A stretch of 64,000 nt of DNA, taken from Macrostomum lignano (lineage: Eukaryota). The notes beneath the pieces were generated by a model. That model was not told the origin of the DNA and ran no database searches. It saw only the letters and a list, made by a program, of their open reading frames with translations. Positions 40,870 to 60,873 of the stretch are shown here, one piece after another. The translations under genes and the position numbers were made by a program. Every line of letters starts with the position of its first letter. Position 1 is the stretch's first letter. Location: positions 186,001 through 250,000 of the forward strand of contig NIVC01001264.1 in assembly GCA_002269645.1 (NCBI GenBank), in the 5' to 3' direction.

Positions 40870-42460
40870 CTTCGTGTGTTCCAAAGAAGGAGACACTGAT
40901 TCATAGGCTGTGTACATTGACAATGCAGGGTATTGCAGCACGCAGGGTAAGGTTGGCTTTGGTAGACGTGCGGATTTGCTTGGTTCGCATTGTTCATATA
41001 TGTGCATCGATTTTTTTTCTTGCTAACTGCTTCTATGGGGATGTATAGACGACGTAATCAGAGATAGGGTTTTGGTTGGAGGAGGCTCAATATATGGGTC
41101 CGTGCGGTGAAAAAATCTGCTTGCTTCGTCAAAATGTACATTGGATTGAGAGAGAGGCCGGTCGAATTTCGTTGACAGCTAGAAATGGAAAGGTTTGGTC
41201 AGAGAATAGGGGTATATGTGTGTTTTGGCTCTATTCAAAATGGGTCTGTGCTGCGAAGACGAGTCCATTGACCATTGGGTGTTGGCTGTTTTGCCAATTC
41301 AGCATACTGAACCTGTCAAGCTGATTGCCTCATGAGTCACTTTTCTGGGTATGTGTAGGAGAGAGAGGCCTGGGAGAGACAAGGGCTCGATTTGGTAAAA
41401 AGATTGACTCGATTCTGTTGGGTGGGTCCTCTGGCCCCATTCGTATTGGCTAATTTGGCGAATTGGCAAATCTACTTGCATTGGTTAAATTATTGAATAT
41501 GGTCAGAGTTGAAGAATTTGGAGGATGAATCAAGATGTAAAGTTGGCAACAACAACACTGATTCACCACATCTAAAAGATGACTGCTAGGAGCTTCGGAA
41601 ATAATACTACTGTACACAGCAGCATCAACAAAAGGTATTAAATTGTCAATCGAAATCGACCCGTAGATGTGCGATTTTGCATGGTTCACAGTGTTCATAT
41701 GTGCATCGAAAAATTTTGTTTCTTGCTAACTGCTCCTATGGGGGAGGGGTATGACGTAATCAAGATAGGGTTTTGGTTGGAGGAGGCTCAATATGGGTCC
41801 GTGCTGTGAAAATATCAGTTTGTACACTGAAATTGGAGAGGGAGGGTCGGAATTCCTTGACAGTTAGAAATGGTAAGGTCAGAGAGACAGGGACGAGTGG
41901 TTCTGTTCTACATGGGTCTGTGCTGTGAAGACGAGTCTAATGAACATTGTGTGTTGGCTGTTTTGCCAATTCAGTAATAAAACCTGTCCAGCTGATTGCC
42001 GCATGAGTCACTTTTCTCGGTGGGTGCAGAAGGAGAGAGAGAGGTCTGGGAGGGACAGTTTAAATGTCAATCGAAATCAACGGACCGCTTCGCAGACTGT
42101 ATATGTTAAAATTATTATAGCTAGGTTTATAGCAAACTGTACGTTTTAACCCAATATTCAAGAATAATCCTTCCCGACTTCTTGAGGGGTATTACACGTA
42201 CCAAATACACACATTTGAATGATGAAACAGCATTTTTGACGATTAAGTTGTAAAAATTATGGTTTCTGCTGATGAAGTGATTAATTTTGTTCAATAAAGT
42301 CTGCATTTTAACGTTAAAAAGAGTCAAAACTGTGAAAAATTGACCTTTTTAAAACGAAAATGTGCAATTTCTAGTAATTTAGCTTTCAATTAAAATGTTT
42401 TGGGTGGAATTCCAACTTGGGCAGGGGTGTGCATATAGAGATCAGTGTGTGACTCATTCC
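40870..42460. repeat. Long-unit degenerate repeat (~700-bp units) plus the first ~250-bp satellite monomer; continues beyond the Maverick
   Basis: GACGTAATC..GGGTTTTGGTTGGAGGAGGCTCAATA at ~41050 and ~41750, with a homologue at ~60215; GACACTGATTCATAGGCTGTGTACATT at ~40890 and 60061. Confidence 0.75.
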
Positions 42461-42844
42461 AGTAGAAGGCATGAGGGGGCTTCTGGGACAAAATTTTTCA
42501 CCTCCTCCATAATCCACCTAAATCCATCCATATTATCCCTGACAGAATCAGAAAAAAGGGGGGTCGCACTCGCTCACAAAACATCCTCCATAATCCACCT
42601 AAATCCATCCATATTATCCCTGACAGAATCAGAATTAAAGGGGGTCGCACTTGCTCCGAAAACTTCGAACATAATTCTATTAAATCCATCCATTATTATC
42701 CCTGACAGAATCAGAGCATAACAGATGTCCACTAACACCTGTTATGCTCATTGACACCGACATCCACCCATAACATTTCTAAAACAATCAGAAAATAATC
42801 TGCATTCTTCTCCCCACATTCAATTCGCAACGCGAAATCAGATC
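42461..42844 (+). repeat. Left TIR of the Maverick, with internal ~75-bp repeats
   Basis: Reverse complement of 58445-58851; outer ~90 bp identical. Confidence 0.92.
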
Positions 42845-43035
42845 GTAGTTGCCAACTACAAGGTAGTACCTTGTTTACGTAAGTTCTACGTAAAAATAAA
42901 ACCCATGCCATGCGCTCCACATGTGCTTTCCATTCTCTCCATTGGCTGAAGTTATAAGGTAGTACCTTGTAGTTGCCAACTACAAGGTACTACCTTGTAG
43001 TTGGCAACTACATGCAACTGCCGGGTATATAAACA
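42845..43035 (+). promoter_or_regulatory. Palindrome cluster plus TATA box upstream of the first Maverick gene
   Basis: 41-bp palindrome at 42956-42996, GTAGTTG-N-CAACTAC at 42845 and 42997, reverse CCAAT at ~42941, TATATAAA at ~43025. Confidence 0.65.
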
Positions 43036-43108
43036 GCCGATTCACACCGCACCTCGCCCCGCCTCGACTCGCCCTGCCTCGCCTAGCCTCACCTTGCTCT
43101 CTTCTGTC

Positions 43109-43398
43109 ATGAATTCGAAGGCGAAACAGCAGCCGACAAAAATTATCGATACAATTAAAAGTATCAGTAGCAAAGACATCGCAAGCACGGCTGTCGCGAT
43201 TACCGCCATTAACGAAGAGGAGCGGGCCTCACTGTTTGAATGCTTGCAAAAAATCGATCGTGAATCGTTGAAAAAAGAGAAATCCGACGAGGCCAAGCGC
43301 TCCAGTAATGACAAGGAGCGCCGAGAGGCACGCTTCATAGCGCGTCTAAAAGAGAGTCTCAAAAAAATTAAAAATGAGCAGATCGACATCAAGACGCG
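43109..43398 (+). CDS. Maverick orphan gene, exon 1 (charged helical region)
   Basis: ATG 43109 (MNSKAK); donor CG|GTAAGT at 43399. Confidence 0.75.
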
Positions 43399-43536
43399 GT
43401 AAGTTTTTTTTGCTTATTCTATTATTTGCAATCCTTGACTTGGTTAAAACGTGATTTAAATTACTTAAGGTTTTTATGATTTCTAGAAAGCGAAACATAT
43501 TTTACATTATGATTCCGTGTTATTGCTTTTTTTTAG

Positions 43537-43987
43537 TTTCTACAACGCTAAAGCGTTATGCTTGGCCGACGTTCAAACGGATGTGGACGGAATGTTGACG
43601 CAGTTCGCCAGTTTAGAGTCCTTCATTGGGGACTTGGAGGTGCTCACCTGTCTGGCGAGAAAAAAGCAGGCGGAGATCCTCGCGTCTATTAAGACCCAAG
43701 GTCTCTCAACAGAAGGAGCCGCCAAGCGACTGGACATCGACCCCAAGTTCGCCGAACGACTGTACACCTTCCACGGGTTCATCAGGAAGTACCCAAATTT
43801 AGTCTTCTCCGGGTACTCGTTCGAGTCGCTGCTCACATACAAAAGAGCGATCGAGAAAGAGGCGGAGCAGGACGACAACTTCTGCTGCAAGTTGGAGACT
43901 GATATTGCCATCGTGTTTGAAGGAGAGAACGAGGACGCCTTGCTGGAGGAGACTACGATGGAGTTGGCGACTGCATCAGTCGACTAA
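43537..43987 (+). CDS. Maverick orphan gene, exon 2 (HTH-like segment, acidic tail)
   Basis: Acceptor T-rich TTTTAG 43535-43536, in phase with exon 1; STEGAAKRLDIDPKFAERLY; acidic C-terminus. Confidence 0.75.
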
Positions 43988-44039
43988 GCCAAGGATGAAT
44001 AAACTAAACAAATTGTAACGTAAAAAAATTAATCCTGTT

Positions 44040-44910
44040 ATTTTACCTTGAAAACTAGTTTACATTGATAAAATCCTGGAAAAAAATCCTGGAGATCCAG
44101 GAAAGTGTTTAGAGGACTACTATGAGTAGTTTACATTGATAAAATCCTAGAAAAAAATCCTGGAAAAAAATCCTGGAGATCCAGGAAAGTGTTAGAAGAC
44201 TACTATGAGTAGTTTACATTGATAAAATCCTGGAAAAAAATCCTGGAAAAAAATCCTGGAGATCCAGGAAAGTGTTTAGAAAACTACTATTAGTAGCTTA
44301 CATTGATAAAATCCTGGAAAAAAATCCTGGAAAAAAATCCTGGAGATCCAGGAAAGTGTTTAGAGGACTACTATGAGTAGTTTACATTGATAAAATCCTG
44401 GAAAAAAATCCTGGAAAAAAATCCTGGAGATCCAGGAAAGTGTTTAGAATTTTTTTCGAAGCTAAGCCTACTCGTAGTGTTTTCAATGTAATAATAACTG
44501 GATGAATTAACTAAGCAAATTATTATAAGTAACTTTGAACAACTTTGTATTAATGTTTTTTTGTTTATTAACATAAAATAAAATATTTAACCATGCTCTT
44601 CACTTATTAAAATTAAAAAAATAATCCTGTTATTTTACCCTGAAAACTACTATGAGCGGCTTACATTGATAAAATCCTGGATAAAATCCTGGAAAAAAAA
44701 TCCTGGAAAAAAATCCTGGAGATCCAGGAAAGTGTTTAGAACTTTTTTCGAAGCTAAGCCTACTCATAGTAGTTTTCAATGAAATAATAACTGAATGAAT
44801 TAACTAAGCAAATTATTATATGTAACTTTGAACAACTTTGTATTAATTTTTTTTTGTTTATTAACATAAAATAAAATATTTAACCAAGCTCTTCACTTAT
44901 TACAATTTAA
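44040..44910. repeat. Internal non-coding repeat region of the Maverick (TCCTGGA modules with the palindrome TCCTGGAGATCCAGGA; ~300-bp duplication)
   Basis: About 7 copies of TTACATTGATAAAATCCTGG..TCCTGGAGATCCAGGAAAGTG. Confidence 0.9.
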
Positions 44911-44944
44911 TATCGATGAGTCTTTTTTTTAAATCCTTTCCGAC

Positions 44945-45433
44945 TCAAGCGTCTCTCTCTATCCCCATATCTTTCAGCAGTCTTCCTAGTTCCTCGTTTG
45001 GAGCACACAAAATAAACCCTGTTCCCGAGCACCCCGTGCACCCGCCCTCTCTCCCCAAACACCCGCCCTCGGCGTACACCCCCAACCCCAGTTTTGTCTT
45101 ACTAAAAATAACAGCTTTAACTAGCTTCCGAGCGATCGACTCACGAAATCCGCTTGAAGCCCCTATATTGTCGAGTCTCCTGAGCATTTCTTTGTCCCAA
45201 CGATTCTTCTCCTCAGGAAAATCTCTATACTTAACGTCGTGCCACATGCAGACAGAGTCTAGCTCGTTCACAGGCTCATGCCCAGGATGTGGATTATTGT
45301 TTTTATCTAGCTGTATTTCAAGTGGATTCAAAGGCCCGCAATATTTATAGCCGGGAAGTGTCCAGCCTTTGTTTGGATGAGGAAGCTTTTCTATCAGTCC
45401 ATGTGAATCTATTTTACCACCAGAGCGCTGCAT
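44945..45433 (-). CDS. Parvovirus-type phospholipase A2 protein (162 aa)
   Basis: LPGYKYCGPLN Ca-loop-like motif and PVNELDSVCMWHDVKY (HD dyad) followed by D; likely ATG at 45433. Confidence 0.88.
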   Translation of the reverse strand: MQRSGGKIDSHGLIEKLPHPNKGWTLPGYKYCGPLNPLEIQLDKNNNPHPGHEPVNELDSVCMWHDVKYRDFPEEKNRWDKEMLRRLDNIGASSGFRESIARKLVKAVIFSKTKLGLGVYAEGGCLGREGGCTGCSGTGFILCAPNEELGRLLKDMGIERDA

Positions 45434-45463
45434 TATTTTATTTAAAATTTTCTTTTTAAATAA

Positions 45464-46459
45464 ATGACAGATCAGAAACTTAAAAAACTCTACTACAGCG
45501 ACAAAGGTTTCTTTGTAGGCAAAAATGCCGTTAGTAAACTCATGGAGCTGAGTAAGGAACCAAAAGCTACAGTAGAAAAATGGCTCTCTAAGCAGGCTCT
45601 CTTTCAAGTCTATTTCCCACCAGTAAAATTTACAAGACCTCACTTTAGCATCTATAAACCTAATGAAGCGCACCAAGCAGATCTTTTGTTTCTCCCCAAC
45701 GACTCAGGCTACAAGTATGCTCTTACAATTACAGACGTTGCCTCCAGATATAAGGAAGCGAGACCGCTTAAGACGAAGAAGTCAGAAGCAGTTGCAGCCG
45801 CCCTCCAAGATATTTATAAAAACTCTCCGCTCACATACCCCCAAATCTTTATGACGGACCCGGGTAAAGAATTCTTTGGGGCAGTGAAATCACTTCTACA
45901 TAAGTATGACGCAAAAATTCGCTATGGCAGAACTGAGCTCCACAGAGACCAGGCTTTTGTGGAAAGATTCAATCTAACTCTAGCCAAGAGACTATTCACT
46001 AAGCAGACAGCTGAAGAGCTGAAACTAAAAGGTGGTCAGTACTATACCAAGTGGACAGACCGGCTCCCCACTGTTATAGAGCAACTGAACAATGAAGTCA
46101 CACGCATGACTGGATTGAAACCATCCCATGCAATTAAACAAGACACTGTCGAACTTAAGTCATCTCATAGAACAGACACCTCGAACTACCCTAAGCTTCC
46201 AGGAGTTGAATCACCATACATACTGACAAACTCTGAGTTTCTACGCTTTTTATATCTACCTGGAGAGCTAGAGAAGGACACCAAAAGAAGAGCTACAGAT
46301 CCATACTTCAGCCTTGATGTACATAAAATAGACAGACATTTTACCTCCGACTCCGGTGACTATTACTTTTTATCTCAGGCCTTTAACCCTAAATCCCCCA
46401 CGCGGTCATTCACTAGAGCTGAACTCCTAGTGATACCAGCTGACACGGAAATTAATTAA
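45464..46459 (+). CDS. Retroviral-like (RVE) integrase
   Basis: HQADLLFL, TITDVASRY, MTDPGKEF and FVERFN (D,D,E); intact 331 aa. Confidence 0.95.
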   Translation: MTDQKLKKLYYSDKGFFVGKNAVSKLMELSKEPKATVEKWLSKQALFQVYFPPVKFTRPHFSIYKPNEAHQADLLFLPNDSGYKYALTITDVASRYKEARPLKTKKSEAVAAALQDIYKNSPLTYPQIFMTDPGKEFFGAVKSLLHKYDAKIRYGRTELHRDQAFVERFNLTLAKRLFTKQTAEELKLKGGQYYTKWTDRLPTVIEQLNNEVTRMTGLKPSHAIKQDTVELKSSHRTDTSNYPKLPGVESPYILTNSEFLRFLYLPGELEKDTKRRATDPYFSLDVHKIDRHFTSDSGDYYFLSQAFNPKSPTRSFTRAELLVIPADTEIN

Positions 46460-46475
46460 AATATTAAAATAAAAA

Positions 46476-46922
46476 ATGACAAAGATTGAAACTAGAACCC
46501 TCAATAAACTCAATAAAATCATTGAATCAAAGAAACCAGGTCTTATATCAATTAAAGGTGCCAAAGTAAAAGTCGATCCCGTGCAGCAAATAGTTCAGTG
46601 TAATGAGCAAAGACACAGCATCACAGATGAAAAGTCAGGAGGAATCCTACCATTAGCAGCTCTTATTCCGATCATTGCAGGCGCTGTAAGTGCCGCAGGT
46701 GGTGTAGCTGGAGGTGTAGCAACTGCTGTTAAAGCTGGTAATGATAGAGCCCACCAGCTGGAATTGCAAAAGATTGCAAGAGATAAAGGTATAACAATTA
46801 AGGCAGGAGAGGGCTGCCCGGATTTTGATGATTGTGAGCATGAAAATTCTGTAAGCAAGTCTGACATTGTCAAAGCCATCATGACATTGCACAATGCTGG
46901 GTTTACAATAATGCGTATGTGA
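46476..46922 (+). CDS. Adenovirus pX-like virion protein
   Basis: GGILPLAALIPIIAGAVSAAGGVAGGVA resembles the adenovirus pX C-terminus GGILPLLIPLIAAAIGAVPGIA. Confidence 0.65.
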   Translation: MTKIETRTLNKLNKIIESKKPGLISIKGAKVKVDPVQQIVQCNEQRHSITDEKSGGILPLAALIPIIAGAVSAAGGVAGGVATAVKAGNDRAHQLELQKIARDKGITIKAGEGCPDFDDCEHENSVSKSDIVKAIMTLHNAGFTIMRM

Positions 46923-47006
46923 TGAGGTTTTAAACCCCACGTTATCCAGCTTCATAAACCTAACGCTACTTATAGGATGTAGAAACAGTTCAACTTTTCT
47001 ATCAGG

Positions 47007-50000
47007 GTGGTCACCCTCAAAAATTTTTTTATATTTTCGAGAAAAATGCCAAAAGCCAATCCAGCAAGAGATTTAGTCAACAAATATTTTTCGTCTCATT
47101 TACCCTACCCTACAACCTTACAAGGCGTCTCATTTCAAGAAAAAAGTAATTTACTAAGAGAAGCATGTAAACAAAAGTTTAACACCGACCCCGGTCACCT
47201 GGGAAGCTATGAAAAACAGTTGGAAATCATCAAACAATTAGAATCCAACCAGTATGCGCCTATACAAAATCCTGCAAAGGAACACCAAGAGAGGAGTCGC
47301 AACTTAGTTAACAAATATGAAACTCTCACTGGTGAAAAAGCAAAGTACCCACAAAATAAGCAGGAACAAGAGAAATTAGAGCAATTAATCCATTTAAAAG
47401 AGTCGGAGCTTGCCATTGAAGAGATTAATTTTGCACAGAGGAAGTTTACAGAACATTACATAGAGTACACGATCCCAATTAACGGCACCAACGGTACCAC
47501 CGCAAATATCTACGACTATAAAGACAGCATCCAATCAGTTGTTGATCACACACTCAAAACACGCAAGACCTTTAAACTACAGATATCATTTAAGATTGCA
47601 TTTTATATGCCTGCAAAACCCACTGAGCATCTCGAGTATTACATGACAACAAAGGCAAAGCCATTCACCCCTACAGACACACTGGATTCTTTCCTTCAAG
47701 ATGTCACTAAGAAAATTGAAGCGTTTACATCCAGAGGTTCCGGATGGGTCGTAGGGGGGATTCAAAGAGCGACTGTCATGGTCATGAAATATGACCCACT
47801 TAAAGCCTCCTCTTATATAGAGCTCCCGCATAAGCTAGCCGGTAAAAAAGCTTGCATAAATGTTAAAAATAAAGACAATTGCTGTGCTCTATGGGCAGTT
47901 CTTTCTGCACTTCTTTATGATAGTGTCCCTCACCACCCCGAAAGAACCTCAAATTATCAAAATTATTTCAAGGACTATCTCATCGAATGCGAAAAGAAGG
48001 GAATCAGGTTTGACAAAGGAGGCTTGGCGATCTCTCAGATCCCAAAGCTAGAAGAAGTGTTTAATAACAAAATTAGAATCACAGTCTTTGAGTGGAGTGA
48101 AAAAACTGAGAAAGTTCAACCGGTCAGATGTAGCAAAGACGTTTTAGATCCCGAGGGGAAAAGGCGGACTGAAGTGGATCTTCTAGTGATTGGTAATTTA
48201 CTAGAGGAGGCTCACTATGTTTGGATTAAAGATCACGATTAATCATCACGAGGCTGTTGCCATCTGCCGCTTGTGCCTTAAGCATTACAGTGGACCTGAA
48301 CGCTTTGAAAAGCTAACAGAGCATGAATTATCATGCGAGGATCACCCGACAAACTGCTCTCTTCCTTCAGCTGAAGAGAAGTATCTCCGTTTTAAGAACT
48401 ATCACAAGATGGAGAAGCTCCCATTTGTTGTATATGCTGATTTCGAATGCTCAATCGTGCCAGAGACTCAAAAACAAACTCATACTCAAAAACAAACTCA
48501 AACTCAAAAACATGTCCCCAACTCAGTAGCATATGCCTTTATTACTACAAAAGGACTTGTTGAGTATAATTATTTCTTTGGAGAGCAGTGTGTGGAGCAG
48601 TTTATTGCCAGAATGTTAGAGCTGCAAAAAGTGATTAGCACCCTTCAACCTGTTCCAATAAGTATGTCTGAGGAGGATGAAAGCAATTTCCTATCAGCAA
48701 CTCATTGCCACATCTGCAGGAAACATTTAACTTGCACTGATTTTAAAAACCCCACCGTTAGGGACCACTGCCACTTTACTGGGAAATTTAGAGGCGCAGC
48801 GCATAACACCTGTAATTTAAAGCTAAAATCGAACATTCATGATCTAACGATATTTTGTCACAACGCAAAGAACTATGACATGCATTTAATAGTTGAAAAA
48901 ATCGGCATGATTCCAGACATACACCTTGATTGCATCGCAGAGAACAAGGAGAAGTTTAAGTGTGTTGATATTAAACAGGATAATTCGGGTACAGGTAAAA
49001 TAAGACTGAAGGATTCATATCAATTTCTAGCTGCCAGTCTAGACGAACTAAGCAAGAATCTAAAAGATGAACAATGTACATATACAAAGATATTTGCAAG
49101 TCAAATTAACAACAGTGATGAATCATTTAAACTTTTAAGAAAGAAAGGCTTCTACCCCTATGAAAATATTACTGGGTATCACGTATTTGAAGATGGTTTA
49201 CCACCACAAGAAAAGTTCTTTTCAAAGCTAACAACTCTGGAATCTCTGACAAAGACTATGAGCACGCGAAGCATGTCTATAATTACTTTAATTGTCAAAA
49301 CTTTTTCCAGTATCACCTGCTTTACCTCTACACAGATGTGTTTCTGCTGGCCGATGTGTTTGAAACCTTCAGAGACACCTGGTACACAGCATATGGCCTC
49401 GATCCAGCACATTATGTGTCTCTCCCTGCCACTAGCTGGGAATCTTTGCTTAAAATGAAATGGGATCAAGATCCAGATTGGTACATTGAACTTCTTACAG
49501 ACATTGACATGTACAATTTTGTCGAATCGTCAAAGCGAGGGGGATCTCAATTTGCGTTAACAGGTATGCAAAAGCAAACAATCCCTACATTGAATCTTAC
49601 AATAAGGAGCAGCCCTCAAACTACATTACTTACTTGGACGCTAATAATCTCTACGGGTGGGCGATGAGTCAAGATCTTCCAGTTAGAGATTTTCGATGGT
49701 TACCCTCATCAGAATTCAAATGGGACTTTTCATTGGCTGCCATTTATGAGGTTGATGTTTACATTCCACCAGAGCTTCACGATTATTTCTCTGACTTTCC
49801 ACCCTTCCCAGAGAACATCAAGTGCCCGAAAATAATCGAAACTCCCAATGATAATAATGGAACTTGGCGCTTGTCAGGAACAGAAAAAGAACATACAGAG
49901 AAACTAACACAGAATCTAAACAACAAGACACGTTACAAAATCCATTACAAACTGCTTAAGTATTTTATCTCACAGGGTTGCAGGGTCACCAAAGTTCACA

Positions 50001-50912
50001 GGGCTCTTACATTTACAGAGGAAGCGTGGATGAAACCCTACATTGATAAGAACACCCAGTTTAGGACCAAAGCAACCAACGACTTTGACAAGAACCTCTT
50101 TAAGTTAGCCAACAACTCCGTCTATGGCAAGACTCTTGAGAATGAGAGGAAAAGAACAAACCTGAAACTTGTTACCTCATCAGAGCCTGCTGTTATTCAG
50201 GCAAATATGTCAAAGCCAACGTTCAAAGAACTCCATATCTTTAATAGCTACTTAGGTGTGATCATATTTTACAAAACCAAGGTGACGCTGCGCAAGCCGA
50301 TCTATACAGGTGTCACTGTACTCGACGAATCAAAACGTCTGATGTATCAGTTCTTCTATGGCATGAAGCAGCAGTACAAGGATAAAATGAAACTTTTGTA
50401 CACTGACACAGACAGTTTTATTATGGACATTCAAACAGAAGACATTTATCAGGACATGCTGCAGCAAAAAGATTTTTTTTGACTTGTCTGAGTATGATGA
50501 GTCTTTCAGGACACAGAATGGCGATCAAGTGTTTGACGCTACTAACAAGAAAGTGATTGGGAAAATGAAGGACGAGATTGCTGGTGACATAATCACTGAA
50601 TTCATTGGGTTGAGAGCAAAGTCCTATTTTGTAAAATGTGAGTCGTCAGACCCAATTAAAAAATCAAAGGGAATTCCGAAACGTGTGGTTAGGAAGGAAC
50701 TTAATGAAGCTGAATACAGAGACGCCTTGAATTGTAACAAAAAGACATCACATGAGTTCTCAAAGCTACAATCTAAAAACCATATTATTCACACAATTCA
50801 GCAAAAGAAGATTGGATTGTCAGGTGCAGATAACAAGAGATTCATTTTTGATGACAATATCAACAGTCTGCCGTTCGGGCACTGGAGATTAGGTTTAGGA
50901 GGTGGAGATTAG
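47007..50912 (+). CDS. Protein-primed family B DNA polymerase (4 frameshifts in this assembly)
   Basis: Exo I VYADFE, Exo II HNAKNYD, Pol DANNLYG, KLANNSVYGK and YTDTDS; breaks at ~48235, ~49230, ~49540 and ~50478; probable ATG 47046. Confidence 0.95.
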
Positions 50913-50985
50913 GCTTAGGAGGTTGGGTTTAGGAGGTTGAGATTGGGTTTAGGTTTAAGAGAAAGTTTAATAAACCTCATAAAAA

Positions 50986-51387
50986 ATGACAACAAATAAC
51001 TTTCTTGAAGATTTGGCTAATGAACTGGAAATCCCAAACTTTAGAGGAATATTTATGAGGGACACTCTGCCTGATTTTCCTCTAAGAAAAGAATGCGGCA
51101 TCATGAACTTTGACAGCACTGATAAGCCAGGATCTCATTGGGTTTGCTGGGTGATTGATCCCGATCGCAAGCACAAGTGTTATTACTTCGATAGCTATGG
51201 GACGGCAGTACCAGAAGAGCTAAGAAATTATATGAAGGGAAAAAAGAATAAAAAAATTTATCGCTCAGACTTTATTCTCCAAGGTCTTAGCAGTGATATT
51301 TGTGGTGAGCTGTGCATGACTGTTTTGTATGCAATGACCAAAACACGAAAGACCTACAAGGAAATTATTCTTGGCTGTGTTTCATAG
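50986..51387 (+). CDS. Adenain/Ulp1-like cysteine maturation protease
   Basis: GSHWVC (H), YFDSYG (D) and LQGLSSDICG (Q, C); intact 133 aa. Confidence 0.93.
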   Translation: MTTNNFLEDLANELEIPNFRGIFMRDTLPDFPLRKECGIMNFDSTDKPGSHWVCWVIDPDRKHKCYYFDSYGTAVPEELRNYMKGKKNKKIYRSDFILQGLSSDICGELCMTVLYAMTKTRKTYKEIILGCVS

Positions 51388-51430
51388 GGGTTCATTGTGC
51401 ATTTCTTGCCGACTTTCTTTCCGCATAATG

Positions 51431-52045
51431 TTAAAGAACTTTCTCGAGTTCATTTCTCAGCTGACTCATGTCATCAGTACCGACCATGTTCAAGTTCATT
51501 CGAATTGATTGTTCATAAAGATCCTGAATGGTTTTGAACTCATCCTCTGAAATGAACTTATCCTCGATTGCCCTTGAAATGTACCCTATGATTGAAGTGT
51601 GCACCCCTTTCTCTTTTACTTGCTTCTCCTGTAGCTGCTTTAGTTTTTTTCGCCTGTTTCGCGCTAATGCTCCAGTAATTGCTGAAATAAGTCCACACGC
51701 AGCACCCACAGAGCCGAGCGGAATTGCGATTGGGGCTGTGATGACTGGCAACGTTGAGACAGCTGCAGCAGATCCAGATAGAACAGACACAGATCCTAGA
51801 ATCATATTGCTGTAGTCGAAAAATTTACAGTGGCTGTCATAGCGCTTAATTTTCTTTGTGTTGTGGAAAATATTTTTTTCAAGATCATCACGCATTTTTT
51901 GAATCTCCACCAGTCGAAACTGTTGAGAGTTACAAGTAATGACGGGGTAGAGTTTTTGTTGCTCATATTGAGGTGCACTAGGTGCTGTGGGAGCTGTGGG
52001 TGTTGTGGGAGCGTTCGGATCATAAAGAGAATTTTGAGCATCCAT
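51431..52045 (-). CDS. Maverick PW-type conserved helical/membrane protein
   Basis: FRLVEI, central hydrophobic hairpin and ISRAIEDKFISEDEF motif. Confidence 0.75.
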   Translation of the reverse strand: MDAQNSLYDPNAPTTPTAPTAPSAPQYEQQKLYPVITCNSQQFRLVEIQKMRDDLEKNIFHNTKKIKRYDSHCKFFDYSNMILGSVSVLSGSAAAVSTLPVITAPIAIPLGSVGAACGLISAITGALARNRRKKLKQLQEKQVKEKGVHTSIIGYISRAIEDKFISEDEFKTIQDLYEQSIRMNLNMVGTDDMSQLRNELEKVL

Positions 52046-52154
52046 TTTTTAGGAAATTTTTAAAAAAAAATCGACAACTAGTTGGTGGTGTTAGATTTGT
52101 TTTACGGTTGATTGCTTCGTCTGCAGTCACGGCAACGGGTCTCTTCGAATTTGC

Positions 52155-52898
52155 CTATTCATTGTCTGTGAGCTCCATTCTACGTCTGATCTCAAACAAG
52201 TCGGTTGGATCACTTATTTCCCTTGTGGTCTGTGGTGCCTCTTCAGCGTCAATGTTTTTGAGATTATGCAAGCGTTCAAGACGACCGATTCTTCTCACCG
52301 ATTTCTGCCATTCGGTAAAAACTAAATCTACAAAGACTTTATTTGCAGTAATTCTTACTTTGATTTGATCATGCAACGCTGTTGACTGAGTCATGAACTC
52401 TTCTAAATTCCTCACTTTACATGTGTTGGTTGCGATGTTTTCTTTAATTCTATCATGCAACGCTGTTGACTGGTTCATGAACTCTTCTAAATTCCTCACT
52501 TTAACTGTGTTTGTGAAAACTCCTTCTTCAAGAATGCGCATCCGTCTATCAGTGGAATTTCTCAGAAGATTAATTGTCGATGCTAAATTTGTTCTTAAGC
52601 CGTTGATTTGCGAGACTGCCGAAGTTATTTCTGACCTAAGTTCATTAGTTGCGTGTACAACCTGTACATAAAGCTTATCACTTTCAAACTTCTGCCAGGC
52701 TACTTTTATGCGGAGATCTTCTATGTTTATCTGTAGCTGGTGCATGGAGCGCTCTAATTGTTTCAGTCTGTTTTTATTCAGTTTGATCTCTGGGATCTTT
52801 TCGTCGCTGTTGATATATCGCCTGTCAAGGATGGATATCTGAGCTGATGTAAGAGCGCTGTTGCCAGAAATGGATTCACCTGCAAAGTTTATCGACAT
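52155..52898 (-). CDS. Coiled-coil protein with an internal ~28-aa duplication (fibre/spike-like candidate)
   Basis: Heptad-rich; NT.KVRNLEEFM.QSTALHD.IK appears twice. Confidence 0.7.
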   Translation of the reverse strand: MSINFAGESISGNSALTSAQISILDRRYINSDEKIPEIKLNKNRLKQLERSMHQLQINIEDLRIKVAWQKFESDKLYVQVVHATNELRSEITSAVSQINGLRTNLASTINLLRNSTDRRMRILEEGVFTNTVKVRNLEEFMNQSTALHDRIKENIATNTCKVRNLEEFMTQSTALHDQIKVRITANKVFVDLVFTEWQKSVRRIGRLERLHNLKNIDAEEAPQTTREISDPTDLFEIRRRMELTDNE

Positions 52899-52914
52899 CT
52901 TTTAATAGCAAATT

Positions 52915-53715
52915 TTAAATTACAGTTCTTTTTTCTTTGCTGATAATCACAAACTGGTAAGGCTGATTCCACTTGTCATAGCAAAGATTAACGAATTCCT
53001 CTTGTGAAATCTTTCTGCTTGAGTTTTTTGTTGGATTTATGAAATAGGCAGGCGCAATGACCTCATTGTAAAATCTTTTTACCTGTCCTGTGGAATGGTT
53101 GGAAACAGGAGAATCAGATTGCAGTTCCCACGAATTGTTTTGTTCGGGAGCTCGAACCAATTCTGTGCAATGTAAATTACATTACAATTGTTATGTCGCC
53201 CTCTTGTAAAATAGTTTTCTATCTGCTTCTGTGGGCCTGTCATACAATCATCAAAGACGATCAAATGCTTTCTCCCCTTTTCTAGCTCATCTGGTTGGGG
53301 TAGAAGTTTGGTCTTTGGATCAGCCTGTGGATCTCCATAGGTGAACACTTTAATGTTCTGCCATTTTTCATTGTCTTTGAGGTGTTTTGCATATTCAGCA
53401 GCTACAATTTCTGGGTTACTGGGAAGGCTTTGTTGGTTATTAAAACATGCAATAATGTCCTCTTTGTTCAGCTTGTTTTGAAGCCCTGCAATCAGCATTC
53501 TATACTCATCTTGATACAGTGTGGGAGAGTAGATGTGCAGAGTGTCATAGTCGATAAAGCCAGGTCTAAGAAGCATGTTAAAGACTCTGAATGTTTTACC
53601 TGAACCTGATGAACCAACAACAATGCATCTGAAGTGACTCGGGATTGACTCGTGATGAGAAAACTTAATCTGACTACGCGTCCAGTGAGGATTGAAGTCG
53701 TTTGAGAAGTCCATT
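52915..53715 (-). CDS. A32/FtsK-like packaging ATPase (1-nt frameshift at ~53082)
   Basis: Walker A GSSGSGKT, Walker B LIVFDD, TRGRH and IRGNCN motifs; one added G restores DRVKRFYNEV; likely start MDFSN. Confidence 0.93.
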
Positions 53716-53754
53716 TTTTCTATGATTGAAAAAAAATTAAATAATAAATCATTT

Positions 53755-53925
53755 AGAAGATGTGTCATTTCGGGACTTGAATGTGTCGTTTTGGGACTTA
53801 GATGTGTCATTTTGGGACTTAGATGTGTCATTTTGGGACTTAGATGTGTCATTTTGGGACTTAGATGTGTCATTTTGGGACTTAGATGTGTCATTTTGGG
53901 ACTTAGATGTGTCATTTCAGGACTA
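53755..53925. repeat. 21-bp tandem repeat (TTTTGGGACTTAGATGTGTCA), ~8 copies, upstream of the ATPase
   Basis: Direct inspection; this repeat creates the spurious THLSPKM N-terminus in the ORF track. Confidence 0.95.
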
Positions 53926-53967
53926 GTCTTATACTCTTACATGTCTTGTACCCTTGAAAAGTACCCT

Positions 53968-54345
53968 TTAGTCAAATTTAAAACTGCTTCCCTTTTTAAT
54001 GCTAGCTCTCATCTTCTCATAGACTGCAGGGTCCACATTGTCTGGATTTGGGGCCAGCGGAGCCAGCGGTTGAATCTCTTGTTTAGGTGTTACAGTATCC
54101 TTTATCTTTTTGGCTGCTGTGGCTACACTGCCAGCCGCTTCGGCAACGTTCTTGATGTTCTCTTTGTTCTCTCTAATGACCTTAAAAATCTTGGCCCCCT
54201 GAGCGATCAAATCGGCAAGACCGTTCCCTGAGCGTTCTTTTCTTGGATAGTGGCCTGCAGGGAAAAGTCCAGATCCGCGTTTAATGAGATTAAGTTCCTC
54301 TTTGTCATAGTATTTGTCAATGTCTTTTTCGAAAATAAGTGGCAT
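53968..54345 (-). CDS. Small basic/amphipathic virion protein candidate (125 aa)
   Basis: ATG 54345 after AAAAA; KRGSG and RSGNG motifs followed by an amphipathic LADLIAQGAKIFKVI helix. Confidence 0.65.
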   Translation of the reverse strand: MPLIFEKDIDKYYDKEELNLIKRGSGLFPAGHYPRKERSGNGLADLIAQGAKIFKVIRENKENIKNVAEAAGSVATAAKKIKDTVTPKQEIQPLAPLAPNPDNVDPAVYEKMRASIKKGSSFKFD

Positions 54346-54361
54346 TTTTACTTGAAATAAA

Positions 54362-55591
54362 TTATTTTTTGTTGAACCGCGAAAGCAGAAGCTCTCTCGC
54401 CCTCTTATCGATGTATTTTCTCTCAAGCATTTTATTGAGGATGTGAACGAACTCTTTTCTATTCTCATCTTTCATTCCGGTCTTTGCTGCTCCTAGAAGA
54501 ACCGCTACTCGCTTGTAGATTTCAGCTATTCCTTTTCCAGTTGAAGGCGGTTGGTCTTGAGGTTGTGGAGTTGGTTGGGCTTGTGGCTGCTGGGGAGGTG
54601 ATGCAAAAGACTGCTCACTTTCAGAGATGGAACTGTCATGTGGCGCCTGTCTTTGTTGAGGTGTGAAAACTCTTTGCTTGATTCTGTTCATTCGATCTGG
54701 AGAGTGTTGTTCTAAGAGTTGCCAGGCATCTGGGTGATCATTTTTATATTCAGCTACTTTCAAAGGGTCTAACTGCTCGAGTTGACTGAGTACTTGTTCT
54801 TCTGTGGAATGTTGCTGCTGTTGTGGCGGTTGCTGTTGTTGTTCTAGATATTTCATCTGATCAATGACTTCCCCCTGATCTGGCAAACCAAACCATTGTT
54901 TAAAGTGCTTGTACTTTTTGAAATTAGTCAGGTTGACACCGCCATCGTACATGTGTTTCAGAACTTCTGGGACCTTTAGTATTTCTATATCTCTAGCAAG
55001 AGAAAAAGTCACTAGATCTCTGTAGTTCTTTAGCTGTTTGTCCGAGATTCTCTCTTGGTTCTTGGTCATAAAATTCAGTAAGGTTTCTGTGAAAGGAATG
55101 CTCTTAGTTTCCGAGCCTTTGACAACAGAAATATGTTTCTTATTTATGTCGATATAATATTCCACTGGTTCATTATAAATGTTTTTTCTCCACATACTTA
55201 TTCCAAATACATATTTCCCATCATGTTCTACACGCTCTACTGGTCCAAAAATGTTATCTGTCACTTTTAGTTGCTGTTGTTGTGGTTGTGGTTGTTGTGG
55301 TTGTGATTGTTGTAGTTGCGGCTGTATCTGTGGTTGCGGTTGTATCTGTGGTGCTTCTGGAATTTTGCCCAAAGCCTTTTGCACCTGGGTTTCCTGTATG
55401 TCGTCGATAGTTTCTTTGACCTGATCAATATTTTTCTTAGCTTCTCCATACCCGGGTTTATGAAACTCTGTAGCTGCTTGGACAAACTCATTGTAGGATT
55501 GTTGCTCCTTATTTATTAGCCCGGTAACTCGTTTCTCTGCTTGTGCTAGCTTCTTCAATTCAGATATCTGCTGTGTACTTTTTCGCTTCAT
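54362..55591 (-). CDS. Maverick PZ-type protein (Q-rich)
   Basis: N-terminal helix ending FHKP; C-terminal GKG..RVAVLLGAAKTG..EFVHILNKM..YI resembles the PZ C-terminal motif. Confidence 0.65.
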   Translation of the reverse strand: MKRKSTQQISELKKLAQAEKRVTGLINKEQQSYNEFVQAATEFHKPGYGEAKKNIDQVKETIDDIQETQVQKALGKIPEAPQIQPQPQIQPQLQQSQPQQPQPQQQQLKVTDNIFGPVERVEHDGKYVFGISMWRKNIYNEPVEYYIDINKKHISVVKGSETKSIPFTETLLNFMTKNQERISDKQLKNYRDLVTFSLARDIEILKVPEVLKHMYDGGVNLTNFKKYKHFKQWFGLPDQGEVIDQMKYLEQQQQPPQQQQHSTEEQVLSQLEQLDPLKVAEYKNDHPDAWQLLEQHSPDRMNRIKQRVFTPQQRQAPHDSSISESEQSFASPPQQPQAQPTPQPQDQPPSTGKGIAEIYKRVAVLLGAAKTGMKDENRKEFVHILNKMLERKYIDKRARELLLSRFNKK

Positions 55592-55622
55592 TTCTTATTT
55601 TATTTTATTTTTAGTTAAAAAA

Positions 55623-56909
55623 ATGAACGACCCACTGACACCAGTTTTCTACAAAATTAACAAGCCTATTTTGAGTGATGATAGCACAATCAAAGCGACT
55701 CAGGTAAGAGTTCCCAGTCAGGAAAATCAGAATGAAACTAATCTTGGTCCTGGCCAAACACTGACATTCACATACAATGGATGTTCGTCTTTGGTTAGTG
55801 TGCACAGTTTTAAGAGCGGCTTCCATATGACATTTCAATTCAAGACAAAAGGTGGTGCGGATGCGGCTCGTGCTAACGTTGACAAGCATGATGCGGATGT
55901 GGCTCTGATCAGTAACTTTTGGGCGTACATGTTCAAGGAGTTTAGTGTATCGAATGGGAGCACAGAGTTGGAGCGAATCGCCAACTTTGGAATTGTCTAT
56001 GACGCTCATTGTTTGATCGAGAATCCTGATTTTATTCAGTTGGGAAGTGGTGCGGGTTTTATTGCAGATGAAAAAGAAGGAGACATCAATGACAGTGGCT
56101 ATAAAAAGAGGAAGAAGAGATACAACTATGCATTGCAAGGTGCTGATGATGCTGCTAAAAACCCGCTGTATCGGTCTGTTGATGTATTTGTACCACTGAG
56201 ATTTATGAGTGGATTCTGTAATAAATTTAATCGACTGACTAGTAACTTTAGCTACACATTTAGACTGACTAGAGATGATCGCAGTAGAGTGTTGTGGACT
56301 GGGGCGGACCACACTGGGATGGAGGTGAAGCTAACCGGAATCGAGCTGTATTTGGAAGTCATTGAGCCAAAGACTGCACTAAAAGCGGATTATCTTAAGG
56401 CAATAGAGAAGGACATTGATGTTGCATACACAGCCTACATGTGTCGAGATGAGCGAAACGAAACTAGAACAAATATCTGCATTAAAGAGGGATCATGCAG
56501 CAATCCAAGGTATATCATTATTAACATGAGAAACCCAAATAGCATTATACGCTACATGCATGGAGACGTGCGGTCCATTCAGCATGAAATCAGTGATAAT
56601 CTTTACCCTGCACTGCCACAAAATGGAGATTTCAGTCAGAACAAGATTAGCAAATTTTATAGCGAGTTGGTCGACTTGGCTGTGAAAGAGAACAATGGAA
56701 TTGCTATCACTGCTCTTCAATATGGAACTCTATATCCGATGTTTGGCGCTGATGTGTCTGCCAGACAAATGCCTACTGATAACAGCCCTGTGAATATCGT
56801 GACTAACATTGAGAGGACTGACGCAACACCCGTGGACTTGTACATTATCTATGCATTTGAGAGGAAGGTGAAGCTTAACATGATCAACAATTCATCCAGT
56901 AAAGTTTAA
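55623..56909 (+). CDS. Major capsid protein (double jelly-roll)
   Basis: Intact 428 aa; SDDSTI, NPRYIII and LYPMFGADVS motifs; located next to the penton and ATPase. Confidence 0.85.
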   Translation: MNDPLTPVFYKINKPILSDDSTIKATQVRVPSQENQNETNLGPGQTLTFTYNGCSSLVSVHSFKSGFHMTFQFKTKGGADAARANVDKHDADVALISNFWAYMFKEFSVSNGSTELERIANFGIVYDAHCLIENPDFIQLGSGAGFIADEKEGDINDSGYKKRKKRYNYALQGADDAAKNPLYRSVDVFVPLRFMSGFCNKFNRLTSNFSYTFRLTRDDRSRVLWTGADHTGMEVKLTGIELYLEVIEPKTALKADYLKAIEKDIDVAYTAYMCRDERNETRTNICIKEGSCSNPRYIIINMRNPNSIIRYMHGDVRSIQHEISDNLYPALPQNGDFSQNKISKFYSELVDLAVKENNGIAITALQYGTLYPMFGADVSARQMPTDNSPVNIVTNIERTDATPVDLYIIYAFERKVKLNMINNSSSKV

Positions 56910-56930
56910 ATATTTTTTTGTGGGTGAAAA

Positions 56931-57804
56931 ATGGAAGCGATTGCTGAAAGACTAAATAATATTATTTCGCACTCCAAGGAGAGCATTCCTATTACAATAA
57001 CTGGGCGAATTAATGACTCAAACGGGATATTTATTCAAAAATTAGAGCAGGTGATTAGCCTGGATCCAGGTGCTAATTATCATGTCTATCTTAACGACTT
57101 CACTGGTTGGTCAAACGTTCCCAATGTGTCGGCAGCAAATAATAAGTTTTATTACAAATGGAAAGGTGCAGCAGCAGAACCTGTGGTATTCCCTGTGAGC
57201 ACGCAAAGTGTGGATACCTACAATTACTTTCTAGAAAACGTCTTTACTAAAAGAGGCCATTTTGAGACACCTGATGCGAGTAAGCCAGATAAAAAACTGT
57301 TCCCTGTCAAACTATCCTATGATCTCACTGTAATGAGAGTGGTCATGCAAGTTCACAAAAATGCGGAGGTTGAGTTTAAAGATGACACTTGGTATAGGGA
57401 ATTAGGATTCGAGAAGAAAGTTTATAAGGAAGAATCCGCGGCGCGGACCGCCACTCAAGCGACGGGGGCCGTTATCATGGCCCGGGAAAGTGTACGCGGT
57501 TTGTTCTTAGCACCCAATATAGCAGACATTGTAAAGGGTTTGAATATTCTAATCAGAACTAATCTCAGTCTTGATTGGGTATTTAAGGGAAAGCGAACGT
57601 TGTACAATGTTGTCGTTGTACAACATCTCCAACTCTGTAGCTGGAGGACAGACGGTGGTAGAGAAACCAAATCCAGTGAAAAGAGTTGTATTGAGTAATA
57701 AGGAGATTCACGAGATTGTGCTACAGTTTGAGACTGAAGATGGGGTGGGTGTTGATTTCAACGGTGAAGAGTTTGTATTGACGTTGATCATTGAGAGAAT
57801 GTGA
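56931..57804 (+). CDS. Minor capsid protein (penton), frameshifted by a 16-nt insertion
   Basis: WSNVPNVSAANNKFYY; C-terminal GQTVVEKP..I..I..GVDFNGEE..LTL; removing 57608-57623 restores RTLYNISNS. Confidence 0.85.
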
Positions 57805-58135
57805 GAAAATGCGTTCCCTTTTAAGTATGCTTGCAGAGAATAGAGTGGTATGAAAAATGCACGCATGTGTACTCAAAATCTCTTACCCCATTCTGACAGT
57901 TTGTGGGCGCGGGCGTCGGGTGCGCGGGGGAGAGGGGAGTGTATGTGTGTGGGCGCAGCGCGCGTGGGGGAGAGAGATTTTCACTTTAACTGAGCCCAGC
58001 CGAGGAAGAATTCCGTCTCGAGGGAAGGCCAGAATGCAAACGATTTCGGCCTCGCGCAAGGCCAAAATGAAAAGGGTTTTGGCCTTTTGGCCTTTTGGCC
58101 TTTTTGGCCTTTTGGCCTTTTGGTTTTTCGGTTTT

Positions 58136-58378
58136 TTAACGCAACTGCCTAATGATTTCTGCAAAGTTATAGTAGCTGTCGTAATCTTTTACGTAGGTTA
58201 CTCCATACTTATGAAACCAGTGTCTTTGGAGAGCTTGATTAATATTAGAGACATTGATATCAACGTCAGGCCAATATTTTCTCATGTACTCGCTGCATTC
58301 AAGTTTGCATCGGTACTTGCTCTTGTAATTAGGCTCGTGCGCTTTGTAATAAGAACCCGGAGAGACAACTGGAAACAT
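58136..58378 (-). CDS. Small Maverick ORF of unknown function (80 aa)
   Basis: ATG after an A-rich leader; Tyr-rich; first ORF inside the right TIR. Confidence 0.45.
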   Translation of the reverse strand: MFPVVSPGSYYKAHEPNYKSKYRCKLECSEYMRKYWPDVDINVSNINQALQRHWFHKYGVTYVKDYDSYYNFAEIIRQLR

Positions 58379-58444
58379 TTTTATTGAGAATTTAATTTTT
58401 TTTCAAAGGGTAAGGACCCTGCGCTGATGATTTAAAGTCTTTGG

Positions 58445-58851
58445 GATCTGGTTTCGCTTTGCAAATTGAATGTGGGGAGAAGAATGCAGATTTTTTCTGA
58501 TTGTTTCGAACATGCTATGGGCGGATGTCGGTGTCAGTGAGCATAACAGGTGTCCTACTAGCTGTTATGCTCTGATTCTGTCAGGGATAATGCTCTGATT
58601 CTGTCAGGGATAATATGGATGGATTTAATAGGATTATGTTCGAAGTTTTCGGAGCAAGTGCGACCCCTCCCCTTTTTCAAGATTCTGTCAGGGATAATAT
58701 GGATGGATTTAGGTGGATTATGGAGAACGTTTTCGGAGCGAGTGCGACCCCCCTTTTTTTCTGATTCTGTCAGGGATAATATGGATGGATTTAGGTGGAT
58801 TATGGAGGAGGTGAAAAATTTTGTCCCAGAAGCCCCCTCATGCCTTCTACT
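58445..58851 (-). repeat. Right TIR of the Maverick
   Basis: Reverse complement of the left TIR; ends CTACT. Confidence 0.92.
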
Positions 58852-59880
58852 CATTCCTGCTCGAAAGCTGTCTCTTGCCAACTTTGAAATCAGCATTTGG
58901 ACAAATTAGCGGTTGAAATTATGGTTTTTGGGATGAAACTACTAAGTTTGACCAATACATTTCGCATTTTAACGTTAGAAAATAATAAAACTGTGAAAAT
59001 TGTCATTTATTAAACGAAATAATGAGCAATTCTAACAATTAGCTTTAAAAACCTGGCTTCAGTGGATATTGGACTGGCTGGGGTAATCCATGTGTGATTA
59101 ATTCCTGCTTCGAAGCTGTCTCAGAGTGGCCAGAAGTATAGCATTTGTAATAATTTTGTGTTAAAATTGTGGTTTCTAGTGATGAATTACTGATTTTGAT
59201 CAATAAAGTCTGCGTTTTAACGTAAAAATGCGTAAAAACTGCGAAAAATTGTATTTTCTTATGAAAAAATGCTTATTTCTATAGCAGTTTAGGCTTCAAT
59301 AGCCGTCTTTGGTTGATTCTGGGCTTGCTTGTGGATGTTTGTGTGCGATTCATTCCTGCTTCGAAGCCGTCTAAGGTCAAGTTGAAAACGACATTTGGGC
59401 ACATTAGCTGTTGAAATTATGGTTTCCAGTGATGAAACTACTGATTTTGATCAATAAAGTCTGCGTTTTAACGTAAAAATGCAGAAAAAATGGTGAAAAA
59501 TTGTATTTTCTTATGAAAAATGCACATTTCTAGCATTTTAGGCTTCAATAGCCATGTATTTGGACGATTTTGGGCTGGCTTGTGGATGTTTGTGTGGGAT
59601 TCATTCCTGCTTAAAAGCTGTCTAAGGTCAAGTTGAAAACGACATTTGGACAAATTAGCTGTTGAAAGTATGGTTTCTAGTGATGAAACTACTGATTTTG
59701 ATCAAAAAAGTCTGCATTTTAACGTAAAAATGCATAAAAAATGGTGAAAAATTGTATTTTCTTATGAAAAAATGCACATTTCTAGTCATTTAGCTTTCAA
59801 AATAACCAAATTTCTTGTTTGAAATTCCAACTTTACTTTGTATGGAGAGGTCAGTGCATGATTCATTCCTGCTTCTAACA
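58852..59880. repeat. ~250-bp satellite monomers (4 copies), each bounded by (C)ATTCCTGCT
   Basis: Motif at ~58852, 59100, 59351, 59602 and 59864. Confidence 0.88.
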
Positions 59881-60828: not shown

Positions 60829-60873
60829 CTAACCCTAACCCTAACCCTAACCCTAACCCTAACCTAACCCTAA
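60829..60873 (+). repeat. Interstitial telomeric repeat (CCCTAA) x ~7
   Basis: CTAACCCTAACCCTAACC... with one CCTAA variant. Confidence 0.9.

What the first reader, a model, noticed from the sequence alone, without database searches (positions are those of the whole stretch)
42461..58851. Complete endogenous Maverick/adintovirus-like genome with full morphogenetic module
Seen: both termini, TSD, integrase, pPolB, protease, ATPase, MCP, penton, PW, PZ and at least five accessory genes in 16.4 kb. Knowledge: this gene set defines virion-capable Polintons. Inference: a recent provirus of a probably unsampled invertebrate lineage, with an unusual accessory complement (see the separate findings).
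Basis: partly seen in the sequence, partly recalled or inferred. Interest (0 to 1): 0.85.

Follow-up and report, generated by a model that had tools for sequence, protein, structure and literature searches.

The report
Frameshifted Maverick provirus in Macrostomum flatworm
A whole 16-kb virus-like jumping element of a well-known family sits in a marine flatworm's chromosome; all its genes are present, but three essential ones are broken in this sequence, and its capsid protein has few close relatives.

Summary
The element is real: 16,391 bp with 384/407-bp terminal inverted repeats and a 6-bp target-site duplication inside a host 251-bp repeat unit. Integrase, OTU-type pPolB, protease, ATPase, PLA2 and protein X are supported by profiles or homologues. 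The capsid folds as a double jelly roll (pLDDT 91.7, Z 25). Penton is supported only weakly; PW and PZ rest on recalled motifs and position. That fits a recent insertion plus assembly errors or a few real indels; I could not separate these. The host is not unsampled: a neighbouring gene is 97% identical to Macrostomum lignano, whose assembly has 78 integrase-linked pPolB rows in a published survey. What is new is sequence: a ten-member capsid clade (next relatives 27% identity or less) and a pPolB under 49% identical to any of 120 hits. Verdict: new, divergent member of Alpha/pPolB1 Polintons.

The parts
42455..42460 (.). Left copy of 6-bp target-site duplication
42461..42844 (.). Left terminal inverted repeat with 81-84-bp subterminal repeats
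42845..43033 (+). Three pairs of short palindromes followed by a TATA-like box; candidate early promoter or protein-binding array (inference)
   Evidence: (I15, I18)
43109..43987 (+). Predicted two-exon accessory gene (97 + 150 codons); GT-AG intron 43399-43536 keeps the frame; function unassigned, candidate early regulator
   Evidence: no family; splicing not shown by RNA
44070..44910 (.). Non-coding AT-rich region: 84-bp tandem array (4.5 copies) and a ~250-bp duplication
44945..45433 (-). Parvovirus-VP1-like phospholipase A2, intact, His-Asp and calcium-loop motifs present
   Evidence: PF08398 E 1.1e-13; motifs
45464..46459 (+). Retroviral-type (rve) integrase, 331 aa, intact, D-D-E present
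   Evidence: PF00665 E 1.6e-10
46476..46922 (+). Protein X (mu)-like core protein with a hydrophobic helix, 148 aa, intact
   Evidence: PF05829 E 4.3e-7
47046..50912 (+). Protein-primed DNA polymerase B (N-terminal region, OTU Cys/His, exonuclease with HNH insert, polymerase); frameshifted four times, near 48.2, 49.2, 49.5 and 50.5 kb; no premature stops
50986..51387 (+). Adenain/Ulp1-type maturation protease, 133 aa, intact
   Evidence: PF00770 E 8.3e-5; adenain 1avp E 0.0016
51431..52045 (-). PW-like protein, 204 aa, one hydrophobic segment; label from recalled motifs
   Evidence: no significant family
52155..52898 (-). Orphan 247-aa protein, probably coiled coil, with an 84-bp internal repeat; candidate fibre or tape protein (inference)
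   Evidence: only weak coiled-coil-type hits; shared AT-rich leader
52915..53714 (-). A32/FtsK-type packaging ATPase; one frameshift near 53.1 kb
   Evidence: PF04665 E 4.2e-6; Walker A and B
53758..53924 (.). 21-bp tandem repeat, 8 copies, upstream of the ATPase start
53968..54345 (-). 125-aa protein with an amphipathic helix and G-x-G motifs, between PZ and ATPase; positional equivalent of pm, candidate core or membrane-lytic protein
   Evidence: pm position from PMC8097293
54362..55591 (-). PZ-like glutamine-rich protein, 409 aa; label from a recalled C-terminal motif and position
   Evidence: no significant family
55623..56909 (+). [quoted passage not shown]
56931..57804 (+). Probable minor capsid protein (penton); one frameshift between about 57.55 and 57.7 kb
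   Evidence: Atlas lead; position after MCP
58136..58378 (-). Orphan 80-aa ORF with the shared AT-rich leader
   Evidence: no significant family
58445..58851 (.). Right terminal inverted repeat
58852..58857 (.). Right copy of 6-bp target-site duplication

Best explanation
A recently integrated Polinton/Maverick (Alpha adintovirus type, pPolB1) in the Macrostomum lignano genome, from a divergent capsid lineage. SHOWN: ends, TSD, insertion into a host repeat, gene content, catalytic motifs, capsid fold, six frameshifts. FROM KNOWLEDGE of Polintons, adenoviruses and virophages: the integrase inserts the linear genome with a 6-bp stagger. An excised or copied linear DNA is replicated from the TIR ends by pPolB, primed by its own terminal-protein domain, which the OTU protease would cut off. 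Capsid trimers and pentons form an icosahedral shell, the ATPase packages the DNA, the protease matures core proteins, and PLA2 with the protein-X-like helix helps entry. INFERRED HERE: one spliced, TATA-driven early gene at the left end, and 13 genes that share an AT-rich leader as a second expression class. As written this copy cannot replicate or package by itself. I put about 55% on the frameshifts being mostly assembly errors and 45% on a real young defective copy that siblings could complement.
For: Ends and empty-site geometry. Length and TIR size match the vertebrate Maverick means of 16.9 kb and 402 bp (PMC8097293). Pfam and PDB hits. pPolB has 3,694 homologues; named ones among the best 120 are mostly cnidarian, mollusc and crinoid proteins at 43-48%. 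OTU-position Cys is in 70 of 70 and His in 64 of 70 homologues. Exo I-III and Pol A-C motifs are present (recalled patterns). MCP model pLDDT 91.7 matches Sputnik MCP (TM 0.66, E 5e-20) and a PBCV-1 capsid chain (Z 25.2, rmsd 3.6, 344 aligned). No stops in 11,637 nt. Leader in 13 of 14 starts versus 2 of 568 other ATGs (criterion set). In M. lignano Mlig_3_7, 6 of the 70 table rows I read (of 78) have the integrase ending 480-690 nt upstream of pPolB, as here (524 nt stop to stop); one has a 1,269-aa pPolB ORF.
Against: No virion, free linear DNA or transcript was seen; no tool here gives reads. Penton, PW, PZ and pm labels are weak. The inner TIRs differ by 14 mismatches and 14 gap openings, more than a fresh insertion usually shows. 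Both host RNase H2 blocks tested and the 31-bp array show almost no indels, which argues against a high local error rate. The homopolymer signal at breaks (sum 23 vs 16.3, P 0.006; 5 of 6 breaks, intervals chosen by me, one long run dominates) is only modest. Table rows with the same spacing need not be the same family; their sequences were not compared.
Confidence: 0.85

Rival explanations
1. The six frameshifts are real: a young but dead copy, at most mobilised or packaged by intact siblings.
For: Host exons and a long tandem array nearby are nearly indel-free. 96% of vertebrate Maverick loci are decayed (PMC8097293). If substitutions were only five times as common as indels, zero stops has P 0.24. 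TIR arms differ.
Against: At 10 or 20 substitutions per indel, zero stops has P 0.055 or 0.003 (ratios assumed). Breaks are modestly enriched for homopolymers. The TSD is perfect.
Confidence: 0.42
2. The family spreads only as an intracellular self-synthesising transposon; the capsid module is kept for protection or cell-to-cell movement, or is vestigial, with no infectious virion.
For: PMC8097293 (2021) states that Maverick particles had not been observed. My search for later virion reports listed three papers, none on animal Maverick virions by title or abstract start.
Against: Intact MCP with a confident double jelly roll, plus protease, PLA2 and protein X, which are entry and maturation parts. 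MCP relatives at 43-78% identity are mostly full length. Free-ended adintovirus contigs are described in PMC8502044.
Confidence: 0.3
3. The sequence is an assembly mosaic of several sibling copies, which would explain the unequal TIRs and the indels.
For: The M. lignano assembly is described as redundant and the species as a hidden allotetraploid (PMC12801592). Many Polinton loci exist in it. Internal tandem arrays could join copies.
Against: Both flanks fit one host repeat unit with exactly a 6-bp overlap, so the two ends belong to one insertion. Some TIR differences look like exchange between neighbouring subterminal repeat units (inference).
Confidence: 0.1

Closest known systems
Alpha adintoviruses / group 2 Polintons with pPolB1 (PMC8502044; PMC10748475)
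   Same: OTU-bearing pPolB related to pfam03175, rve integrase, adenain, FtsK-type ATPase, double jelly-roll capsid, PLA2 and protein X, TIRs. All 748 flatworm pPolBs in the survey table are pPolB1.
   Different: PLA2 and protein X are separate genes on opposite strands, not one PLA2X fusion. Capsid is 27% identical or less outside its ten-member clade. No direct comparison with the Mayetiola or Terrapene reference proteins was possible.
Vertebrate Mavericks (PMC8097293)
   Same: About 16-17 kb, TIRs about 400 bp, 6-bp TSD, eight core genes including an ORF between pz and atp.
   Different: End is AGTAGA, not (AGT)2 or (AG)3. Four alternating gene blocks instead of two convergent modules; integrase directly upstream of pPolB. 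One predicted intron in an accessory gene (their core ORFs are intronless). Fails their 'intact' definition.
Cnidarian, mollusc and crinoid Polintons (Oculina, Actinia, Exaiptasia, Elysia, Saccostrea, Anneissia proteins)
   Same: Nearest named pPolBs; same HNH/EndoVII insert and OTU Cys/His.
   Different: At most 48.6% identity; the window pPolB has the longest end branch (0.89) of 121 rows and its placement is unsure.
Other M. lignano Polintons tabulated in PMC10748475 Table S3
   Same: Same host; 6 of 70 rows read share the short integrase-pPolB spacing.
   Different: Listed only as coordinates, without organism name, gene map or capsid analysis. A pPolB broken as here would fail that study's 900-aa ORF filter.

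Membership tests
Polinton/Maverick | Terminal inverted repeats of 100-1,500 bp, 13-25 kb length | tested here: met
   384/407 bp, 16,391 bp; ranges from PMC10748475
Polinton/Maverick | 5-8-bp (typically 6-bp) target-site duplication | tested here: met
Polinton/Maverick | Protein-primed DNA polymerase B | tested here: met
   gene frameshifted four times
Polinton/Maverick | Retroviral-type integrase | tested here: met
   PF00665 above cut-off; D-D-E
Polinton/Maverick | [quoted passage not shown] | tested here: met
Polinton/Maverick | Packaging ATPase and adenain-like protease | tested here: met
   ATPase frameshifted once
Polinton/Maverick | [quoted passage not shown] | tested here: inconclusive
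   Atlas lead only; no Pfam hit; not folded
Vertebrate-type Maverick core | pw, pz and pm homologues | tested here: inconclusive
   No profile in Pfam, PHROGs or NCBIfam; recalled motifs and pz-ORF-atp order
Vertebrate-type Maverick core | Two convergent gene modules and (AGT)2 or (AG)3 ends | tested here: not met
   against PMC8097293
'Intact' Maverick (PMC8097293 definition) | All core ORFs uninterrupted | tested here: not met
   six frameshifts in three core genes
Alpha adintovirus | OTU domain fused to a pfam03175-class PolB | tested here: met
   Cys 70 of 70, His 64 of 70 homologues (OTU label from recalled motif and PMC11161782); PF03175 on window pieces below cut-off and precomputed on many homologues
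Alpha adintovirus | PLA2X (PLA2 fused to a protein-X-like domain) | tested here: inconclusive
   Both domains present but in separate ORFs
Alpha adintovirus | Hexon and penton cluster with Mayetiola cognates | not testable with these tools
   All MCP relatives found are unnamed; reference proteins were not available as stored sequences
Adintovirus as a virus | Free linear genomes or virions | not testable with these tools
   needs reads or particles

The most novel reading that the evidence does not exclude
The frameshifts are assembly errors and this is an active, virion-forming Polinton family of a tractable flatworm. It would carry a capsid lineage of its own and an adenovirus-like two-stage programme: a spliced, host-polymerase-driven early regulator acting at the left-end palindromes, and 13 genes behind a shared AT-rich leader. 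It would give a laboratory animal in which Maverick particles and their life cycle can be looked for directly.
Probability: 0.22. Interest if true: 0.68.

Novelty: new member of a known kind. Interest (0 to 1): 0.37.

Why it matters
Whether animal Mavericks make infectious particles is an open question (stated for 2021 in PMC8097293). M. lignano has transgenesis and RNA-seq (PMC12801592) and dozens of long-ORF Polinton loci, so it is a practical place to ask. This locus adds a divergent capsid clade, a full gene map, a shared leader motif and a predicted intron. I found no paper describing Macrostomum Polintons: searches gave three papers with passing co-mentions, and searches listed none; subscription papers and Repbase were not searchable. 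The architecture itself is standard, and this copy is broken as assembled, which caps the interest.

Tried and rejected
PDB sequence search with MCP: two chance hits, E 0.5 or worse; with PLA2: none. First MCP model from 10 sequences was poor (pLDDT 52); its fold search was superseded by the 71-sequence model. Scan of bacterial and archaeal genomes for MCP relatives: 60 pattern matches, none confirmed, so no neighbourhoods of relatives were obtained. Phage collection with pPolB: no match. Rfam: no match in 42000-59500. PHROGs and NCBIfam on 14 ORFs: only ATPase versus terminase (E 3.7e-7) is meaningful; the fimbrial hit to penton (E 1.2e-4, far below cut-off) and the coiled-coil hits were set aside. 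Atlas on the second exon: unnamed clusters at 0.94, one DUF6192 row at 0.93; a lead only. RNase T2 hit to the 80-aa ORF (E 0.034) rejected as chance. No gasdermin hit in any ORF scanned; absence not shown. The maximum-likelihood MCP tree did not finish; FastTree was used on 101 of 158 hits (350-520 aa) plus the query. My OTU regular expression matched only 8 of 70 homologues and was replaced by a column count. The 278-aa ATPase ORF start with heptad repeats was rejected: the repeats lie upstream of an ATG that carries the shared leader. The long ORF 57857-58387 (+) lacks support and was not counted. 'HNH in pPolB is unusual' rejected (61 of 70). The organisms behind the closest MCP relatives stayed unknown. 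Supplement text of PMC8502044 had no hit for Macrostomum, Schmidtea, flatworm or Platyhelminthes.
Full report
Boundaries. The element runs from 42461 to 58851 (16,391 bp). Its ends are inverted repeats of 384 and 407 bp: 364 of 378 aligned columns identical, 14 mismatches, 14 gap openings, the first ~90 nt identical. The same six bases flank both ends. The flanks are degraded copies of a host 251-bp tandem repeat. Aligned separately to one unit, the left flank ends at 59607 and the right flank begins at 59602, so they overlap by exactly the six duplicated bases. This is a true insertion.

Host. An intron-containing RNase H2A gene at 37086-39465 is 97% identical to the Macrostomum lignano UniRef entry; the next hit is 51%. 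Its two aligned blocks show no frameshift. Telomere-type hexamer repeats lie at 60829. The host is therefore M. lignano or a very close relative. In PMC10748475 (passages, supplement search, and parts 251 and 253 of 266 read), Table S3 has 78 integrase-linked pPolB1 rows for GCA_002269645.1, which PMC12801592 (passages) names as Mlig_3_7. A further 175 rows belong to an accession I recall as another M. lignano assembly. Of the 70 Mlig_3_7 rows I read, 6 have the integrase ending 480-690 nt upstream of pPolB (my count); here the gap is 524 nt stop to stop. The host lineage is sampled, though only as coordinates.

Gene content. Pfam on 19 ORFs gave PLA2 (1.1e-13), rve integrase (1.6e-10), protein X (4.3e-7), A32 ATPase (4.2e-6), adenovirus protease (8.3e-5), and below cut-off DNA_pol_B_2, endonuclease VII and DJR-like. 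The protease also hits adenain in the PDB (E 0.0016). Catalytic motifs (recalled patterns) are present in integrase, ATPase, protease, PLA2 and polymerase. The Cys and His at the OTU positions are conserved in 70 and 64 of 70 homologues, matching the TP-vOTU-exo-palm layout in PMC11161782 (passages). The HNH insert is ordinary (61 of 70). The penton call rests on position and an Atlas lead. PW, PZ and pm rest on recalled motifs and on the pz-ORF-atp order in PMC8097293 (passages); no library confirmed them.

Capsid. With a 71-sequence alignment the MCP model reaches pLDDT 91.7 and pTM 0.89. It matches Sputnik MCP (TM 0.66, E 4.9e-20), virophage, MELD-virus and adintovirus entries in BFVD, and a PBCV-1 capsid chain (Z 25.2, rmsd 3.6, 344 aligned). 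By sequence, the word search found 9 relatives among 4,209 candidates, 44-78% identical, none with an organism name. The profile search found 546 at E 0.001 or better, 23 at 1e-30. Among 101 near-full-length hits, 9 are 43-78% identical and the rest 27% or less. These 9 and the query form a clade with support 99 (FastTree, no bootstrap, no named rows).

Polymerase relatives. The largest piece has 3,694 homologues among longer proteins; the best 120 are 43-48% identical, and the named ones are mostly cnidarian, mollusc and crinoid. It has the longest end branch of 121 rows and uncertain placement. Homologues carry PF03175, which defines the Alpha class in PMC8502044 (parts 2-3 and section 7 read). 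PLA2 plus protein X also marks Alpha virion modules, though there they are one fused gene.

The copy is broken. All 70 full-length homologues tested match pPolB in five consecutive pieces, giving four frameshifts near 48.2, 49.2, 49.5 and 50.5 kb. ATPase and penton each break once near their 3' ends. There are no premature stops in 11,637 coding nt (accessory ORFs were chosen for being open, core genes were not). If the TIR mismatches were neutral decay, 10.4 stops would be expected, so the insertion is recent and the TIR differences have another cause, perhaps exchange among subterminal repeat units (inference). Six indels with no stop has P 0.24, 0.055 or 0.003 at assumed ratios of 5, 10 or 20 substitutions per indel. 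Five break intervals are modestly rich in homopolymers (P 0.006, intervals chosen by me, one run dominates). Against error, nearby host sequence is nearly indel-free. PMC11131425 (passages) notes that assemblies introduce frameshifts into such elements. I leave this at roughly 55:45 for error.

Expression signals. Thirteen of 14 gene starts have an AT-rich 30-nt leader ending in A-rich bases, against 2 of 568 other ATGs in the element (criterion chosen). This supports the orphans as real genes. The exception is the leftmost gene. It follows a palindrome array and a TATA-like box, and a 138-nt GT-AG intron joins its two ORFs in frame. I infer an early, host-transcribed regulator and a second gene class; no RNA evidence was available. 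Core ORFs of vertebrate Mavericks are intronless.

How it works. From established knowledge of Polintons, adenoviruses and virophages: integrase-mediated insertion, protein-primed replication from the TIR ends, assembly of a double jelly-roll capsid, ATPase packaging, protease maturation, and PLA2/protein-X-assisted entry. None of these steps was shown here, and this copy as written would need intact siblings for replication and packaging.

Verdict. A real, full-length, recent Polinton/Maverick of the Alpha/pPolB1 type: new member of a known kind, in a known host, with divergent capsid and polymerase sequences and three frameshifted core genes. Searches for a description of Macrostomum Polintons (listings only) found none. 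Interest 0.37.

Noticed in passing
window 42845-43033: Three pairs of two alternating short palindromes just inside the left TIR, ahead of a TATA-like box; no copy at the right end.
   Followed up: partly
window 43399-43536: Predicted GT-AG intron that joins two accessory ORFs in frame.
   Followed up: partly
window 50883-50962: Telomere-like degenerate repeats at the end of pPolB, running into the protease leader.
   Followed up: no
window 57900-58125: GC-rich non-coding stretch and an 8-bp tandem repeat between penton and the 80-aa ORF; possible promoter or origin.
   Followed up: no
window 44948-54365: G-x-G or GG motifs in PLA2, protein X, pm-like and PZ-like proteins; candidate maturation-protease sites (recalled pattern).
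   Followed up: partly
window 13947-20314: Gypsy-like LTR retrotransposon with ~200-bp terminal repeats, broken pol, and a nested ~700-bp element with perfect 259-bp inverted arms at 14256-14953.
   Followed up: no
window 4968-8029 (-): hAT-type transposase pieces (Dimer_Tnp_hAT, E 7.7e-8).
   Followed up: partly
window 788-2533 (+): 581-codon ORF with a weak CIDE-N domain hit (E 1e-4), probably from another mobile element.
   Followed up: partly
window 30637-34391: 853-codon LINE-type reverse transcriptase ORF lying between 32-bp inverted repeats; possibly a LINE nested in a DNA transposon.
   Followed up: partly
window 60829-60873 and 61600-63300: Interstitial telomere-type hexamer run and a large 22/23-bp satellite to the right of the element.
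   Followed up: no
P0253-P0272: A sister group of ~470-490-aa unnamed capsid proteins, 22-27% identical, joins the element's clade with support 98 in the quick tree.
   Followed up: partly
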